Positions 28,309 to 31,646 are shown, numbered from the stretch's first letter. The stretch: 64,000 bases of DNA from Candidatus Krumholzibacteriota bacterium (GCA_963764625.1 CAVXTH010000006.1:224001-288000), one strand, 5' to 3'. Numbers and translations are program-made. Notes: generated by a model not told the origin, from the letters alone.

Positions 28309-29589
28309 GTGAATTCTCAGGCGCAGGGCCACTGGTTCGCTCATGTCGACCTCGATGCGTTCTACGCTTCGGTGGAGGTCCTCGACTTTCCGCATCTGCG
28401 GGGGCTTCCGGTGGCCGTGGGCGGGCCGGCGCGAGGGCGTGGAGTCATCGCGGCCGCCTCCTACGAAGCGCGCCGCTTTGGCGTGCGCAGCGCGATGCCC
28501 ACGGCCCGCGCGCTCTCACTTTGTCCGCAGCTCGTGCTGCGCGCGGGCCGCATGGGGCGCTACCAGGAGAAGAGCGAAGAGGTGTTTCGTATCGTACGCG
28601 AGCTCAGCCCCCGCATCGAGATGGTCTCGCTCGACGAGGCCTTCCTCGATCTCAGGGGCTGCGAGCGCTTGCATGCGCCATGGACCGAATTTTCCCTGCG
28701 GCTGCGGCGACGGGTTTACCGCGAGACGGGGCTGTGGATCTCCATCGGAATCGGCGAGACGCGCCGCATCTCCAAGATCGGAAGCGCCCTGCGCAAGCCG
28801 AGGGGAGTGGTGGTCGTTCCCCGCGGCGCCGGACGAGAATTCCTGGCGCCGCTTCCGGTCGAGTATCTCTGGGGGGTAGGGGCCAAACTCGGCGCGCGAC
28901 TGCACGAGCAGGGGTACTCCACCATCGGAGATCTCGCCGCGAGTTCGACCTCTCTCTTGCGCTCCCAGTTCGGGAAGATGGGAACGAGTCTTCTCGAGAT
29001 GGCTCAGGCGCGCGAGCTGGGACACATCGATCCCGCACGCGCGGCCAAGAGCGTGAGCCACGAACTCACCTTCGCCCGCGATCTCCACGGAGAAGCGGAG
29101 CTTCTCCCGGTGCTGTTGAAATTCAGCGAGAAGATCGCCTACCGCTTGCGCAAAGGAAACCTTCAGGGCCGGGTCGTACAGCTCAAGATCCGCGACAACA
29201 CCTTTCGCACTCTCACCCGTCGCGCCACTCTTCCCGCGCCCAGCGCCCATGAAGACGAGATCTACCGGATGGCCGGGAAGCTCCTGCGCCGGCTAAACTG
29301 GGGCGCAACCCCCGTCCGCCTCATCGGTTTGGGAATGCACGAGATCACTCGGGAGGAACTATCCCAAGGAGAGCTTTTCACGAGCGAAGCCGCTCGCATC
29401 CAGCCGCAACTCGAAAAGACGCTCGACCGGGTCCACACCCGCTACGGGGGAGAGGCCATCGGTCGCGCGAGCACTCTACTGCGTCGCACCGACAATTCCG
29501 CTTCCTGGGAAGCGGTTGCCTGGGAAAAGACTTCGGTCGAGAACCCTTCGATCCAAGAGGAGACAGGAGAACGAAATGATCGAGACTAG
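28309..29589 (+). CDS. dinB: DNA polymerase IV (Y family)
   Basis: HVDLDAFYASVE, AASYEARRFGVRSAMP, SLDEAFLD, KPRG, VRLIGL and clamp-type QGELF; RBS aggag before GTG 28309. Confidence 0.95.
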   Translation: MNSQAQGHWFAHVDLDAFYASVEVLDFPHLRGLPVAVGGPARGRGVIAAASYEARRFGVRSAMPTARALSLCPQLVLRAGRMGRYQEKSEEVFRIVRELSPRIEMVSLDEAFLDLRGCERLHAPWTEFSLRLRRRVYRETGLWISIGIGETRRISKIGSALRKPRGVVVVPRGAGREFLAPLPVEYLWGVGAKLGARLHEQGYSTIGDLAASSTSLLRSQFGKMGTSLLEMAQARELGHIDPARAAKSVSHELTFARDLHGEAELLPVLLKFSEKIAYRLRKGNLQGRVVQLKIRDNTFRTLTRRATLPAPSAHEDEIYRMAGKLLRRLNWGATPVRLIGLGMHEITREELSQGELFTSEAARIQPQLEKTLDRVHTRYGGEAIGRASTLLRRTDNSASWEAVAWEKTSVENPSIQEETGERNDRD

Positions 29590-30955
29590 CCCCACGCTCC
29601 CCACTCTCTTGTGGCTCGATCGCGCGTGGATCGAACTCCACGGACAGGAAGAAGCCGCGCGCAGGATTCGAGAATCCAATGGTCAGGGAATTCTTCTCGA
29701 GTGGGGCGAGGATCCACTCGGGCTCTTTTCTCTTCTCGAGTTGGCGGCGCGCGTTCGCTGTCCGCTCCTGCCCGCGCGCTGGATGCCGGCCCGCCCCGAA
29801 GCCAACGGCGGCTTCGGCGATGCGTCCAAGATTCTCTGGCTGGCTCGCACCGACACCGCGCTGCAGGGTCTTCTCACCGGGGTGAAGCTCTGCGACGACG
29901 AACTCGACGGCGTGGCGCGCATGCAAGAGCCGCTGGCGCTACTCGGAGTTCCGGGCGATGTGCTGCGCTCTTCCACATCCTTCGAGGACGAGGGAATTCG
30001 CCGACGCGCGCAGAAGTGGATCGGGCGCTTGGGAGCGGATCGCGTGGCACTGGCCGTGATTCGCCGCGAAGGAGATCCCCTGGAGGGACTGGCTCGCGAA
30101 TGGGGTCTGCCCGTTCTGCGCCTTAAGGCAGCGGACGAAGAAGAGGGTTCTCACGCCCGCGAGCCGCGGGGCTTGGCGCCCATCCTGTGCACGGACTTTC
30201 AACTCGATCGGGAATATCGGCTGCCCGATGACACCTACGTCCCCACGCTCGGGGACTTGCTGCGCCGCGGGAGTCTTCTGCGCGAGCGCTGTCTCTACGA
30301 GAGTCTTCCCGCGAATTGGCGGGAGCTGGCCAGCCGCGAGCTCGAGCTGCTCAACGAGTGGATGCTCGGGCCTCTGCTGCGGCGAGCGGGAGCGTTGATC
30401 CAGACTCTCTTGCCGGTGGCGGGGGTGGAGGTGGAGGCACCCCTGCCTCAGGTGGGAGGAATCTGCGCCTGGCTGCTTGGCTTGAGCGACCGTCGCCTCG
30501 TACGCCAGGCTCGCGTTCCCGATCCCGAGGCGACGGCCACCGCACTGGCGCGCGCACTCGCGGACTGGGACCGGCGTTTGACGGCGCGGGTGGCCGAAGA
30601 GGCCTGGCCCCGGCTACAGGGCCGGCTCCTCCCATGGCTCGAAGGGGGTCTTCTGGCCGCGTGCCCGGAGGCTCCCTCCTCGGCCGGACGGCGCTTTTGC
30701 TTCAGTGGCCGCGCGCTCTGGGCCCGGCTGCCGCTGCTGCGCGATCGGGACGGAATTCCCTGCGTGCGTCTCCTCGAAGCCGATCGCCGCGCGCTGGGAT
30801 GGTTCGAACTGGAGTTACAGTCCGCCGCAATGCCTTCGCGTCTGGTATCCTCGGACGAAGCCGGTGCATCGGGGCAGGTTCATGAGCTGCACTCATCGGC
30901 GTTCGCGGTGCCGCGACAACTCGAACTCGGCCTGAGAGTCGAACGCTTGGGTTGA
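29576..30955 (+). CDS. Degenerate, apparently catalytically inactive DnaE (Pol III alpha)-like protein, 459 aa
   Basis: Collinear remnants of the PHP and palm regions without catalytic residues; C-terminal QLELGL; own RBS; overlaps the dinB stop. Confidence 0.65.
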   Translation: MIETSPTLPTLLWLDRAWIELHGQEEAARRIRESNGQGILLEWGEDPLGLFSLLELAARVRCPLLPARWMPARPEANGGFGDASKILWLARTDTALQGLLTGVKLCDDELDGVARMQEPLALLGVPGDVLRSSTSFEDEGIRRRAQKWIGRLGADRVALAVIRREGDPLEGLAREWGLPVLRLKAADEEEGSHAREPRGLAPILCTDFQLDREYRLPDDTYVPTLGDLLRRGSLLRERCLYESLPANWRELASRELELLNEWMLGPLLRRAGALIQTLLPVAGVEVEAPLPQVGGICAWLLGLSDRRLVRQARVPDPEATATALARALADWDRRLTARVAEEAWPRLQGRLLPWLEGGLLAACPEAPSSAGRRFCFSGRALWARLPLLRDRDGIPCVRLLEADRRALGWFELELQSAAMPSRLVSSDEAGASGQVHELHSSAFAVPRQLELGLRVERLG

Positions 30956-30983
30956 AGTTGATTCCAATCTGGAGGGGAAACGA

Positions 30984-31646
30984 GTGAGAACACCAACTCG
31001 AGAATTGACGTCGCGCCAAGAAGAGGTTCTCGAGGCGCTCTGCCAATGGATGAAAGACCATGGCTACCCTCCAAGTATTCGTGAGTTGGGGGAGGCGGTG
31101 GGTCTCTTGAGCACTCGCAGCGTGCACGACCACCTTCGCCAGCTGGAACGGAAGGGGTTTATCCGCCGTCGCCGTGATCACTCACGCGCGATCGAGATCC
31201 TGAAAATGACCAAGGGGACCCGAAAGCCTCGTCGCGCTCCGGTCATCCGGGACACGCGGCACGTGAGAGTTCCGATCATTGGGGAGGTGGCGGCGGGTAG
31301 CCCCATCCTGGCCGATGAGAGAATCGAGGGCGAGTTCGAGCTCGACGTCTCGATGGTACCCGACCCCAACTGCTATTTCTTGCGGGTTCGAGGTGAATCG
31401 ATGATCGGGGCGCACGTCTGCGACGGCGATCTCATCCTCGTCCGCCCGCAGCAAGAAGCGCGCAACGGCGAAATCGTCGTGGTGCTCATCGAAGATTCCG
31501 TGACGCTGAAGCGCTTCTTCCGGCGCGAGGGTTACGTCGAACTCAAGCCGGAGAACGGCCAGATGGCGTCCATTCTCCTCACGCCGGAGATGGGTCACGC
31601 GCGCATCCTGGGCAAACTCATGGGAGTCGTCCGCCGCACCTACTGA
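30984..31646 (+). CDS. lexA: SOS repressor LexA
   Basis: GYPPSIRELGEAVGL HTH, VAAG cleavage site, VRGESM serine, TLKRF lysine. Confidence 0.96.
   Translation: MRTPTRELTSRQEEVLEALCQWMKDHGYPPSIRELGEAVGLLSTRSVHDHLRQLERKGFIRRRRDHSRAIEILKMTKGTRKPRRAPVIRDTRHVRVPIIGEVAAGSPILADERIEGEFELDVSMVPDPNCYFLRVRGESMIGAHVCDGDLILVRPQQEARNGEIVVVLIEDSVTLKRFFRREGYVELKPENGQMASILLTPEMGHARILGKLMGVVRRTY

What the first reader, a model, noticed from the sequence alone, without database searches (positions are those of the whole stretch)
28309..31646. Inverted mutasome: active DinB plus a dead DnaE-like protein plus LexA in one operon
Seen: the unbroken 459-aa ORF between dinB and lexA aligns by eye, in order, with the DnaE N-terminal half. 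ILWLARTDTALQGL resembles LVLLAKNEEGYKNL. LAREWGLPVL resembles LARELGIPLV. WRELASRELELLNEWMLGPLL resembles YRERLEYELxVIxxMGFxxYF. GGICAWLLGLSD resembles GSLVAYxLGITD. LPLLRDRDGIPCV...ALGWFELEL resembles VPLYRDxxGxxVT...xLGLLKxDF. The PHP metal ligands, GRGS and the catalytic PDIDxD (here RRLTAR) are gone, and so are the fingers/HhH/OB regions. It ends in a beta-clamp-type QLELGL. DinB keeps its catalytic D and DE residues and a QGELF motif. Known: in ImuA-ImuB-DnaE2 the Y-family subunit is the dead clamp adaptor and the C-family enzyme is active. Inference: here the roles are reversed, with a pseudo-DnaE acting as scaffold or regulator for Pol IV. I know of no described system like this.
Basis: partly seen in the sequence, partly recalled or inferred. 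Interest (0 to 1): 0.88.

Follow-up and report, generated by a model that had tools for sequence, protein, structure and literature searches.

The report
Dead truncated DnaE in SOS operon
Between a working repair polymerase gene and the SOS repressor gene lies a conserved gene for a shortened, catalytically dead copy of the main replicative DNA polymerase that keeps a sliding-clamp docking tail, a kind of polymerase relic not found described in the papers searched.

Summary
ORF 29576-30955 (459 aa, "X") matches no Pfam or NCBIfam model. Its AlphaFold model (pLDDT 80.6) nevertheless hits Pol III alpha/DnaE first with two aligners. The C-terminal half folded alone does the same.

X consists of a PHP-like domain, a palm and a vestigial thumb. 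It has no catalytic carboxylates, no GRGS, no PHP histidines and no fingers, HhH or OB domains. Its disordered tail carries a near-invariant QLxLxL, the form of E. coli Pol IV's clamp motif.

X is not a pseudogene: dN/dS is 0.15-0.19, similar to DinB. It occurs in 10 of 10 genomes of one Krumholzibacteriia family and in 0 of 111 others sampled. In sister families, full-length DnaE paralogs that have already lost catalytic residues sit directly upstream of lexA, so X probably descends from that lineage.

The operon promoter carries conserved AAAC-N4-GTTT palindromes, likely LexA boxes.

The "inverted mutasome" reading is only partly supported. One 97%-complete genome keeps X-lexA with no Y-family polymerase at all, and no X-DinB contact was shown. 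The likeliest role is an SOS-induced, clamp-tethered, non-catalytic accessory protein.

The parts
28193..28221 (+). Promoter-like element: TGGACA (28193-28198), a 17-nt spacer, then TAAGCT (28216-28221)
   Evidence: Read directly from the sequence. The same layout, with TTGACA or TGGACA, occurs in the orthologous upstream regions. The strict sigma-70 consensus scan did not list it. Promoter function is inferred.
28200..28215 (.). Palindromic box 1 (core AAAC-N4-GTTT at 28202-28213), filling the -35/-10 spacer; candidate LexA operator
   Evidence: The palindrome is present in 9 of 9 orthologous upstream regions. It has the top PWM score in the genome, 22.2 bits. The genome holds only 10 exact sites in 3.57 Mb. 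Among 60 fetched loci, the motif occurs only at this promoter, in the 18 loci that cover it.
28229..28244 (.). Palindromic box 2 (core AAAC-N4-GTTT at 28231-28242), just downstream of the -10 element
   Evidence: Second-best PWM score in the genome, 21.9 bits. An exact second box is present in 5 of the 9 upstream regions, and one search shows degenerate versions at the same position in others.
28309..29589 (+). dinB: active-type DNA polymerase IV (426 aa) with a Q..LF clamp motif, a RecA-NT-like segment and an extra Trp-containing tail
   Evidence: Pfam IMS, IMS_C and HHH domains; NCBIfam NF002677 303 bits against a cut-off of 256. Catalytic D14, D16, D109 and E110 are invariant in 59 sequences. 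It is the only Y-family gene in the genome.
29576..30955 (+). X: 459-aa catalytically dead, truncated Pol III alpha/DnaE homolog. Its ATG lies 11 nt upstream of dinB's TAG stop codon (29587-29589), so the two ORFs overlap by 14 nt, and AGGAGA (29565-29570) precedes the ATG.
29576..30205 (+). X residues 1-210: PHP-like beta/alpha barrel without the metal-binding histidines
   Evidence: PHP-only proteins align to model residues 2-210 at Z 7-8 (4gx9, 3o0f, 9etk). hhalign maps this part to E. coli alpha residues 1 to about 250, with no HxH.
30179..30289 (+). X residues 202-238: the most conserved segment of the family (F208, Q209, D211, E213, R215, P217, D218, L228, R231, L234, L235 and R238 invariant), yet modelled with low confidence
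   Evidence: Invariant columns are. Block pLDDT over residues 201-240 is 52-77. A role as a partner interface is inference only.
30281..30835 (+). X residues 236-420: C-family palm (Pol beta-like nucleotidyltransferase fold) with a much reduced thumb and no catalytic carboxylates
   Evidence: Folded alone (pLDDT 85.0). In VIA-align the top 6 of 48,161 chains are all C-family polymerases (5lew Z 9.6, rmsd 3.9, 173 residues). In Foldseek the top 5 are all Pol III alpha, E 2.7e-3 to 3.7e-2.
30836..30916 (+). X residues 421-447: variable, disordered linker
   Evidence: pLDDT is about 40. These columns are unconserved and gapped.
30917..30934 (+). X residues 448-453: QLELGL, a clamp-binding-type hexapeptide
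   Evidence: Q448 is invariant; L449, L451 and L453 are at least 90% conserved in 30 sequences. E. coli Pol IV ends in RQLVLGL, described as its beta-binding motif in PMC3716654 (passages). Clamp binding by X was not tested.
30984..31646 (+). lexA (220 aa), 28 nt downstream of X's stop codon and preceded by GGAGG
   Evidence: TIGR00498 216.5 bits against a cut-off of 110.95; LexA_DNA_bind and Peptidase_S24 domains. The junction was read.

Best explanation
X is a pseudo-polymerase. It is a conserved, catalytically dead paralog of the Pol III alpha subunit (DnaE), cut down to a PHP-like domain, a palm and a remnant of the thumb, followed by a flexible tail that ends in a Pol IV-type beta-clamp-binding hexapeptide.

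X is the middle gene of a compact dinB-X-lexA unit. That unit is transcribed from a promoter overlapped by two conserved AAAC-N4-GTTT palindromes, probably LexA operators, so X would be made when DNA damage removes LexA.

X probably descends from a lexA-linked DnaE paralog that had already lost its catalytic residues while still full-length. Such genes persist in sister families.

Proposed mechanism: after SOS induction, X docks by its tail into a cleft of the sliding clamp. Its polymerase-like but inert core then acts as a non-catalytic accessory that governs which polymerase (Pol III, DinB or the DnaE2-like enzyme) uses the clamp at damaged sites. This is analogous to what the dead Y-family protein ImuB does for DnaE2.

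Shown here: homology, the losses, conservation, purifying selection, gene order and the promoter palindromes. Inferred: LexA control, clamp binding and the accessory role.
For: Fold:
- Whole-protein model: pLDDT 80.6, pTM 0.78.
- Foldseek ranks 1-14 are all Pol III alpha, E 1.9e-11 to 2.3e-7.
- VIA-align top 7 of 48,161 chains are all C-family, Z 9.1-10.9, 352-381 residues aligned, ending at E. coli alpha residue 560.
- The palm folded alone also ranks C-family polymerases first.

Sequence:
- hhalign E 4.1e-7, with the two proteins aligned in order along their length, against reversed controls at E 0.13-0.7.
- X scores best against the dead lexA-linked paralogs: E 2.3e-5 with 6 sequences, compared with 0.093 for DnaE1 and 0.14 for DnaE2.

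Dead active site:
- The DxD loop falls in a gap, the third Asp column is variable, and there is no GRGS or HxH.

Selection and distribution:
- dN/dS for X is 0.153-0.193 in the four least-saturated independent pairs. DinB gives 0.104-0.417.
- X is present in 10 of 10 genomes of family f1 and in 0 of 111 genomes of families f2-f9.
- There are 35 homologs of 273-527 aa.

Ancestry:
- In f3 and f5, a full-length DnaE-like gene lies directly upstream of lexA in 4 of the 6 loci fetched.
- 0 of 6 of these paralogs keep the full Asp triad, whereas all 20 DnaE1 rows and all 10 DnaE2-like rows do.
- f1 genomes have no third full-length paralog.
- The six paralogs lie on one side of a branch with SH-aLRT 95.

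Clamp motif:
- E. coli Pol IV's RQLVLGL terminus is described as its beta-binding motif in PMC3716654.
- The dead full-length paralogs also carry clamp-type motifs near their C-termini, either ending in QLSLF/QMSLF or with QLVLF or QLVFPF.

Regulation and operon:
- Palindromes are present in 9 of 9 upstream regions and give the two best PWM hits in the genome.
- They occur only at this promoter among 60 loci.
- The same promoter sits directly upstream of X where dinB is missing.
- The ORFs overlap by 14 nt or are separated by only 28 nt.
Against: - No sequence model of any polymerase domain detects X. Homology therefore rests on predicted structure and one profile-profile score.
- The palm-only Foldseek hits do not reach E 0.001.
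- Clamp binding, LexA binding and transcription were not tested.
- No consensus sigma-70 promoter was called.
- The palindrome was not found upstream of recA, so its identification as the LexA box is indirect. The best supporting site is one 17.8-bit box about 670 nt upstream of the DnaE2-like gene.
- The subgroup comparison may be affected by differences in alignment depth and diversity.
- The dead-paralog clade has long branches.
- Calling the catalytic columns in the most divergent paralogs (f5) depends on an uncertain alignment.
Confidence: 0.55

Rival explanations
1. Inverted mutasome in the strict sense. X is an obligate partner of DinB: its dead PHP-palm core binds Pol IV, for example the extra Trp-containing tail of this DinB subgroup, and tethers or regulates it at the clamp, with RecA joining through DinB's RecA-NT-like segment.
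For: - dinB lies directly upstream of X in 9 of 10 f1 genomes, with overlapping or abutting ORFs.
- All 36 of 36 close DinB relatives (at least 50% identity) carry Q..LF, a RecA-NT-like pattern and a further 33-65-residue tail, usually containing a Trp. The 23 more distant DinBs have 24 or fewer residues after that point.
- In at least 14 cases an X hit and a DinB hit list the same longest-contig length.
- In published AlphaFold models of the ImuA-ImuB-DnaE2 complex, the PHP domain of DnaE2 is the main interface to the Y-family partner (PMC12926913, section 22).
Against: - G001 (97% complete, same genus) has X-lexA and no PF00817 match anywhere, with the SOS-type promoter moved directly upstream of X.
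- The DinB beside X in L008 has an in-frame stop.
- The dead full-length paralogs in sister families are next to lexA but have no dinB within 15 kb.
- DinB has its own clamp motif, so it does not obviously need an adaptor.
Confidence: 0.25
2. X is an SOS-circuit regulator. It acts on LexA or the RecA filament, for example by modulating LexA self-cleavage or sensing DNA ends, rather than on polymerases. This would explain why lexA is its one invariant neighbour.
For: - lexA follows X in all 9 loci examined and in every plus-strand locus.
- The ancestral-type dead DnaE is also fused into an operon with lexA.
- The most conserved segment of X (residues 202-238) is modelled with low confidence, as a partner-binding segment might be.
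Against: - I know of no polymerase-derived regulator of LexA (recalled; not searched specifically).
- lexA linkage is also typical of mutagenesis cassettes. The 2013 survey describes dnaE2 as typically part of a LexA-regulated cassette (PMC3919608, passage), so the linkage may simply be inherited.
- The conserved clamp-type tail points to the replisome.
Confidence: 0.1
3. X has a non-catalytic, DNA-directed role independent of the clamp, or a new activity at a different site. Examples would be binding primer ends or gaps with the palm remnant, or using the conserved acidic and His residues of segment 202-238.
For: - Many invariant charged residues lie outside the old active sites: R68, R91, D93, D128, D155, R156, D211, E213, R215, D218, R231 and R238.
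- The palm fold is retained with high model confidence.
Against: - No known catalytic motif was recognised by any library.
- The fingers and HhH DNA-binding modules are gone.
- The tail motif is the feature most simply explained.
Confidence: 0.07
4. X is a decaying relic with no function, that is, a pseudogene fragment of dnaE2.
For: - X lacks every catalytic feature and half of the parent protein.
- It is invisible to family models.
Against: - The ORF is intact and of similar length in 10 of 10 f1 genomes across 4 genera.
- dN/dS is 0.15-0.19.
- There are 54 invariant columns in 30 sequences at 39-78% identity.
- The tail motif is conserved within an otherwise variable tail.
- A ribosome-binding site is retained and the coding frames overlap.
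Confidence: 0.03

Closest known systems
Pol III alpha subunit / DnaE (C-family DNA polymerases), N-terminal half
   Same: X has a PHP-type barrel followed by the C-family palm, in the same order. The alignment ends at the palm/fingers junction (E. coli residue 560). Five sequence landmarks are shared in order.
   Different: X has no catalytic Asp residues, no GRGS and no PHP metal ligands. The thumb is largely deleted, and the fingers, HhH/beta-binding domain, OB fold and C-terminal domain are absent. X is 459 aa against about 1,100-1,200 aa. It is not detected by PF02811, PF07733 or any NCBIfam DnaE model.
[quoted passage not shown]
   Same: ImuB is a catalytically dead polymerase homolog encoded in a LexA-linked damage cassette. 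It is described in the literature as having a clamp-binding motif and serving as a non-catalytic component (PMC12926913, sections 4, 20 and 22).
   Different: ImuB is Y-family and X is C-family. The active enzyme in the X operon is the Y-family member, so the composition is mirrored. No ImuB-C barrel or RecA-NT motif was seen in X. A partner for X has not been shown.
DnaE2B-PolY-RecA module (reported for Bacteroidetes)
   Same: Both associate a C-family paralog with an active Y-family polymerase that carries a RecA-NT motif, in genomes without ImuA or ImuB (PMC12926913, section 20). This genome has no ImuB-like gene, and its DinB has a RecA-NT-like segment.
   Different: In that module the DnaE2B is described as a polymerase. 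Here the C-family member is dead and truncated, and a separate DnaE2-like gene with intact catalytic motifs lies elsewhere in the genome.
Dead full-length, lexA-linked DnaE paralogs of sister Krumholzibacteriia families
   Same: They occupy the same position, directly upstream of lexA on the same strand. They have lost catalytic carboxylates, carry a clamp-type motif near the C-terminus, and give the best profile match to X.
   Different: They are still about 920-1,050 aa, with recognisable fingers and HhH domains. No dinB is adjacent, and the exact AAAC-N4-GTTT box is absent from their loci.
E. coli Pol IV C-terminal clamp-binding peptide
   Same: Pol IV ends in RQLVLGL and X carries RQLELGL. 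The Q, L, L, G and L positions are identical. The former is described as the beta-binding motif in PMC3716654.
   Different: In X the motif lies six residues before the C-terminus, on a protein with no polymerase activity. Binding has not been tested.

Membership tests
C-family DNA polymerase superfamily (homology to Pol III alpha/DnaE) | N-terminal PHP-type beta/alpha barrel | tested here: met
   Model residues 2-210 align to PHP domains (4gx9 Z 8.2, 3o0f Z 8.0, 9etk Z 7.1), and the same residues form part of the full alpha matches.
C-family DNA polymerase superfamily (homology to Pol III alpha/DnaE) | C-family palm (Pol beta-like nucleotidyltransferase fold) following the PHP domain | tested here: met
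   Residues 236-424 were folded alone. The VIA-align top 6 of 48,161 chains are all C-family (Z 9.6, 8.8, 8.2, 6.0, 5.7, 5.1; 172-178 of 189 residues aligned). The Foldseek top 5 are all Pol III alpha, though only at E 2.7e-3 to 3.7e-2.
C-family DNA polymerase superfamily (homology to Pol III alpha/DnaE) | Significant sequence or profile similarity aligned in order along both proteins | tested here: met
   hhalign probability 92.8%, E 4.1e-7, 415 columns. Reversed controls give E 0.13-0.7. HMM-to-sequence searches found nothing.
Functional DnaE/DnaE2 polymerase | Three catalytic carboxylates (E. coli D401, D403, D555; numbering recalled) | tested here: not met
   The DxD loop falls in an alignment gap. 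The D555 column corresponds to X E413 and varies in the family (E, Q, N, S, T, C).
Functional DnaE/DnaE2 polymerase | Fingers, HhH/beta-binding and OB domains | tested here: not met
   X ends at the palm/fingers junction (model residue 418 = E. coli residue 560). There are no Pfam hits to PF17657, PF14579 or PF01336. No longer relatives were found (weak evidence).
Functional DnaE/DnaE2 polymerase | Curated family models (PF02811, PF07733, NCBIfam DnaE/DnaE2) | tested here: not met
   0 families at E up to 1 in both libraries.
ImuA-ImuB-DnaE2 mutasome | Dead Y-family ImuB next to an active DnaE2 | tested here: not met
   The genome has a single PF00817 match, this catalytically intact DinB. The C-family gene in the operon is the dead one.
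ImuA-ImuB-DnaE2 mutasome | RecA-like ImuA | tested here: inconclusive
   PF00154 finds only one match in the genome, recA itself. A divergent ImuA could escape that model.
DnaE2B-PolY-RecA module | Active PolY bearing a RecA-NT motif | tested here: inconclusive
   The catalytic residues are invariant. A segment resembling the genome's own RecA N-terminus follows the clamp motif, but this was judged by eye and by a crude pattern, not by a profile.
DnaE2B-PolY-RecA module | Catalytically competent DnaE2B as the partner | tested here: not met
   X lacks the active site.
Beta-clamp-binding proteins | Conserved QL[x]L[x]L / QLxLF-type motif on a flexible terminus | tested here: met
   Q448 is invariant; L449, L451 and L453 are at least 90% conserved. 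The preceding tail has pLDDT of about 40.
Beta-clamp-binding proteins | Physical binding to DnaN | not tested
DnaN was located but not modelled with X.
LexA regulon member | Operator bound by the cognate LexA | not testable with these tools
   The conserved palindromes overlap the promoter. Binding is inferred.
DNA polymerase IV (DinB) | Equivalog score and catalytic residues | tested here: met
   NF002677 303.1 bits against a cut-off of 256. D14, D16, D109 and E110 are invariant.
LexA repressor | Equivalog score; winged-helix DNA-binding domain plus S24 peptidase domain | tested here: met
   TIGR00498 216.5 bits against a cut-off of 110.95; PF01726 and PF00717.

The most novel reading that the evidence does not exclude
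X is the hub of an undescribed type of SOS mutasome that mirrors ImuA-ImuB-DnaE2. [quoted passage not shown] More broadly, catalytically dead DnaE paralogs, both full-length and truncated, would form an unrecognised class of pseudo-polymerases. The large polymerase surveys would have missed them because they filtered out sequences without an intact active site.
Probability: 0.25. Interest if true: 0.8.

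Novelty: new variant of a known kind. Interest (0 to 1): 0.62.

Why it matters
Dead polymerase homologs that act as organisers are known for the Y-family (ImuB) and have changed how damage-induced mutagenesis is understood. 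I found no counterpart described for the C-family, the replicative polymerase family.

The two large surveys of bacterial polymerases each state that they removed such sequences: those without an intact active site (PMC3919608, passage) and those that were strongly diverged or truncated (PMC12926913, passage).

This locus provides three things:
- A conserved, selected, minimal PHP-palm protein with a clamp tail.
- An apparent evolutionary series: an active-type DnaE2-like gene, then a dead full-length lexA-linked paralog, then the dead truncated X.
- A simple three-gene SOS unit in which to test what the polymerase core does when it no longer polymerises.

If X manages clamp access, it would be a new way for bacteria to control polymerase switching. 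It would also show which surfaces of Pol III alpha matter for protein contacts rather than for catalysis.

Tried and rejected
Searches and tests that led nowhere:
- Sequence searches gave no polymerase link. phmmer of X against PDB sequences gave only nanobody chains (best E 0.0065, judged spurious). The X profile against PDB sequences gave 0 hits. phmmer against 1.84 billion representatives gave 13 hits, all members of the X family. hmmsearch of the X profile against DnaE reading frames gave nothing significant (best E 0.01 in a very small database).
- A search for longer relatives of X found none. The tool itself calls this weak evidence.
- ESM Atlas gave no usable hit.
- Complex prediction of X with DinB returned "no answer" (score 0.00 in both runs; controls not run). 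I do not count this for or against binding.
- Sequencing runs: 20 DNA holders were listed, all with less than half of the sampled words, and no RNA holder was listed. I did not lay reads, so nothing can be said about expression.
- Defining a regulon from exact AAAC-N4-GTTT sites failed. The other 8 of the 10 genomic sites lie mostly inside long reading frames, and there is no box upstream of recA.
- The strict sigma-70 scan called no promoter. The one terminator-like hairpin inside X (29696-29722) is fewer than the 3.0 expected from shuffles.
- I did not add X to the DnaE tree because it is too divergent for a meaningful placement. The careful tree search did not finish, so the quick tree is reported.
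- Supplements of the two survey papers were not seen. They might list divergent or inactive C-family sequences.

Rows dropped:
- In one search, loci L043, L047 and L050 were excluded by my strand filter because they lie on the minus strand.
- Six locus pairs are duplicates: L044=WIN, L042=L001, L046=L003, L045=L006, L048=L008 and L051=L007. Only the four independent low-saturation pairs are quoted.
- In the tree, L011 was dropped as a duplicate of L010.

Full report
WHAT IS THERE

The window region 28.2-31.7 kb holds three same-strand ORFs:
- dinB, 28309-29589.
- A 459-aa ORF, 29576-30955, here called X.
- lexA, 30984-31646.

DinB has the full Pfam domain set and reaches an NCBIfam Pol IV equivalog (NF002677, 303 bits against a cut-off of 256). 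LexA reaches TIGR00498 (216.5 bits against 110.95). X matches no model in Pfam or NCBIfam, even at E up to 1.

The ORFs are tightly packed:
- X's ATG lies 11 nt upstream of dinB's TAG stop codon, so the two ORFs overlap by 14 nt, and it is preceded by AGGAGA.
- lexA's GTG lies 28 nt after X's stop codon and is preceded by GGAGG.

The flanking genes are on the opposite strand and look unrelated: a hemerythrin-domain gene upstream and an unannotated 212-aa ORF downstream.

X IS A REAL, CONSERVED GENE

The 5.8-billion-protein collection holds 35 homologs at E up to 0.01. They are 41-100% identical to X, 273-527 aa long, and none has a Pfam domain or an informative name. Exhaustive phmmer over 1.84 billion cluster representatives finds only 13, all from this family. 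Thirty of them align with 54 invariant columns.

In the species-representative genomes, 8 loci were found. Six are titled Krumholzibacteriota or Krumholzibacteriia MAGs and two are titled "uncultured bacterium". A profile search of 121 genomes of the class finds X in 10 of 10 genomes of one family (f1, four genera, own genome included) and in 0 of 111 genomes of families f2-f9.

Pairwise dN/dS (Nei-Gojobori) for the four least-saturated independent pairs:

| Pair | dS of X | X | DinB | LexA |
|---|---|---|---|---|
| L001-L002 | 0.49 | 0.153 | 0.104 | 0.009 |
| WIN-L001 | 0.95 | 0.161 | 0.154 | 0.061 |
| WIN-L002 | 0.87 | 0.155 | 0.142 | 0.074 |
| L008-L049 | 0.32 | 0.193 | 0.417 | 0.149 |

Three minus-strand loci were dropped by my filter, and six locus pairs were duplicates. 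X is therefore under purifying selection about as strong as that on DinB. It is not a decaying pseudogene.

X IS A POL III ALPHA HOMOLOG REDUCED TO PHP PLUS PALM

AlphaFold2 on the 30-sequence alignment gives pLDDT 80.6 and pTM 0.78, with residues 421-459 disordered.

Whole-protein fold searches:
- Foldseek against the PDB gives 19 matches at E up to 0.001. Ranks 1-14 are all Pol III alpha/DnaE (M. tuberculosis, T. aquaticus and E. coli; E 1.9e-11 to 2.3e-7). Alpha-epsilon chimeras and PolC follow.
- VIA-align, which does not depend on Foldseek, puts seven C-family polymerases at the top of 48,161 chains (Z 9.1-10.9; 352-381 residues aligned). Model residues 9-418 span E. coli alpha residues 5-560. 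By my recollection of the domain boundaries, that is PHP, palm and thumb, up to the start of the fingers.
- PHP-only proteins follow at Z of about 7-8 and cover only residues 2-210.

Because one domain can dominate such lists, I folded residues 236-424 alone (10 orthologs; pLDDT 85.0):
- VIA-align again ranks six C-family polymerases first: 5lew Z 9.6, rmsd 3.9 Å, 173 of 189 residues; 2hpi Z 8.8; PolC 3f2b Z 8.2. The next, unrelated chain aligns 85 residues at Z 5.1.
- Foldseek's top five are all Pol III alpha, though only at E 2.7e-3 to 3.7e-2. Pol beta-type nucleotidyltransferases come next.

At the sequence level, hhalign of the X family against 37 DnaE N-termini gives probability 92.8%, E 4.1e-7 and 415 aligned columns in order. 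Reversed-X controls score E 0.13-0.7.

X IS CATALYTICALLY DEAD

The column of the third aspartate is X E413, which varies in the family (E, Q, N, S, T, C). The GRGS motif and the HxH at the start of the PHP barrel are absent. The thumb is mostly deleted, and nothing follows the palm except a disordered tail.

THE TAIL

Residues 421-447 are variable and have low model confidence. Residues 448-453 read QLELGL. Q448 is invariant, and L449, L451 and L453 are at least 90% conserved among 30 sequences.

E. coli Pol IV ends in RQLVLGL. That hexapeptide is described as Pol IV's beta-binding motif, with the glycine letting the flanking leucines enter the clamp pocket (PMC3716654, passages read). Clamp binding by X is therefore a well-founded inference, but I did not test it.

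WHERE X CAME FROM

All 21 relatives searched have a DnaE1, and most also have a DnaE2-like gene. Families f3, f4 and f5 have a third, divergent DnaE-like gene (PF07733 scores of 34-167 bits), while f1 genomes have at most two matches.

I fetched six of these third-paralog loci:
- In four of them (f3: L056 and L057; f5: L052 and L053), the gene lies directly upstream of lexA on the same strand.
- All six genes are about 920-1,050 aa and have PHP, palm, fingers and HhH matches.
- No dinB lies within the 15-kb loci (tblastn at E up to 1e-3).

In a MAFFT alignment, all 20 DnaE1 rows and all 10 DnaE2-like rows keep the three carboxylates. None of the six third paralogs keeps all three:
- In f3 the DxD motif is replaced and His stands at the third position.
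- In f4 the three positions are V, L and V.
- In f5 the second Asp is Gln. This alignment is the least certain.

Further links between these paralogs and X:
- They carry clamp-type motifs near their C-termini.
- X's profile matches this group best: E 2.3e-5 with only 6 sequences, against 0.093 for 20 DnaE1 and 0.14 for 9 DnaE2. Profile diversity may influence these scores.
- In a quick maximum-likelihood tree the six lie on one side of a branch with SH-aLRT 95. Their branches are long, so a single origin is compatible with the tree but not demonstrated.

Taken together, the complementary distribution, the shared position next to lexA and the profile affinity lead me to infer that X is the f1 descendant of a lexA-linked DnaE paralog that died first and was truncated later.

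REGULATION

All 9 of 9 orthologous upstream regions contain an AAAC-N4-GTTT palindrome, usually in two copies.

In the window:
- Box 1 (28200-28215) fills the 17-nt spacer between TGGACA and TAAGCT.
- Box 2 (28229-28244) lies just downstream.

Specificity of the motif:
- The 3.57-Mb genome has only 10 exact sites, against about 16 expected from base composition.
- The two boxes are the best PWM hits in the genome (22.2 and 21.9 bits).
- Among 60 fetched loci, the motif occurs only in the 18 that include this promoter, and only there.
- In the locus without dinB, the same promoter sits directly upstream of X.

The motif resembles the GAAC-N4-GTTC LexA box of Gram-positive bacteria (recalled, not looked up). 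A 17.8-bit box in a similar promoter-like context lies about 670 nt upstream of the DnaE2-like gene. There is none upstream of recA. LexA control is thus likely but indirect.

DINB AND THE "INVERTED MUTASOME" IDEA

This DinB is the genome's only Y-family polymerase. It keeps invariant catalytic residues. In 36 of 36 close relatives it is followed by three features:
- A Q..LF clamp motif.
- A segment resembling the genome's own RecA N-terminus, that is, a RecA-NT-like motif. This was judged by eye and by a crude pattern.
- A further 33-65-residue tail, usually containing a Trp, which the 23 more distant DinBs lack.

dinB is adjacent to X in 9 of 10 f1 genomes. In one of those, the copy has an in-frame stop (L008).

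However, G001 (97% complete, same genus) has X-lexA and no PF00817 match anywhere. The sister-family paralogs have no dinB beside them. Genus g4 additionally has a weak Y-family (imuB-like) gene just upstream of its DnaE2.

LITERATURE

- The 2026 survey of bacterial polymerases (PMC12926913; sections 14, 20 and 22 and search passages read) recognises four C-family groups. [quoted passage not shown] It lists 11 DnaE2/PolY modules, and in the text I read, the disrupted active sites belong to Y-family members.
- The same survey describes a DnaE2B-PolY-RecA module in Bacteroidetes. It also reports that, in its AlphaFold models, the PHP domain of DnaE2 forms the main interface to ImuB.
- Three full-text searches returned no paper describing a dead or PHP-palm-only C-family homolog.

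VERDICT

The best reading (confidence 0.55) is that X is an SOS-induced, clamp-tethered pseudo-polymerase derived from a lexA-linked dead DnaE paralog, acting as a non-catalytic accessory in polymerase traffic. A strict DinB-scaffold role remains possible (0.25).

It is a new variant of a known kind, namely dead polymerase homologs in damage-response cassettes. The practical value of this locus is a minimal three-gene system and an apparent evolutionary series in which to test that role.

Noticed in passing
L011 (G000:C5) 2375-5626 and 4956-5825: The genome's DnaE2-like gene has intact catalytic motifs. After about residue 880 its reading frame turns into an Arg/Pro/His-rich tail, while an overlapping ORF in another frame gives a weak OB-fold match (20.7 bits, below the cut-off). 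This suggests a frameshift or an assembly error near position 4956-5000.
   Followed up: partly
L011 (G000:C5) 1690-2350; also the end of G000:C2 near 98118: A 17.8-bit AAAC-N4-type box in a promoter-like context lies about 670 nt upstream of the DnaE2-like gene. It is followed by a repetitive leader (the ORF at 1980-2348 translates as repeated peptide units). An identical box at the end of contig C2 suggests that C2 and C5 overlap or share a repeat.
   Followed up: partly
L008 3599-4504 (same genome as L048): The dinB next to X has an in-frame stop after 301 codons, whereas its close relative in L049 is intact at 428 aa. DinB's dN/dS in this pair is high (0.417).
   Followed up: partly
G001 (loci L004/L050): This same-genus genome, 97% complete, has X-lexA with the SOS-type promoter directly upstream of X and no Y-family polymerase detectable anywhere.
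   Followed up: yes
G008:C158:35787-36209 and G009:C142:1856-2278: A weak IMS match (about 35 bits, in a 513-aa open frame) lies about 2 kb upstream of the DnaE2 gene in G008. This looks like an imuB-dnaE2 cassette coexisting with dinB-X-lexA in genus g4.
   Followed up: no
L054 6193-9042 and L055 6089-8860: The dead DnaE paralogs of family f4 keep strong PHP (116-131 bits) and fingers matches but have a badly degraded palm (31-37 bits). They end exactly in a canonical QLSLF/QMSLF clamp motif and are not next to lexA.
   Followed up: partly
window 30179-30289 (X residues 202-238): This is the most conserved stretch of the X family, with many invariant acidic and basic residues and a near-invariant His214, yet its model confidence is low. 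It could be a partner-binding segment or a new functional site.
   Followed up: no
window 32609-33226: A 205-aa protein has a BMC (microcompartment shell) domain only in its C-terminal 60 residues. It is 83-95% identical in orthologous loci, making it the most conserved neighbour of the operon.
   Followed up: no
window 29696-29722: A terminator-like hairpin with a T-run lies inside the 5' part of X's coding sequence. The region holds fewer such sites than shuffled sequence does, so it is probably chance.
   Followed up: partly
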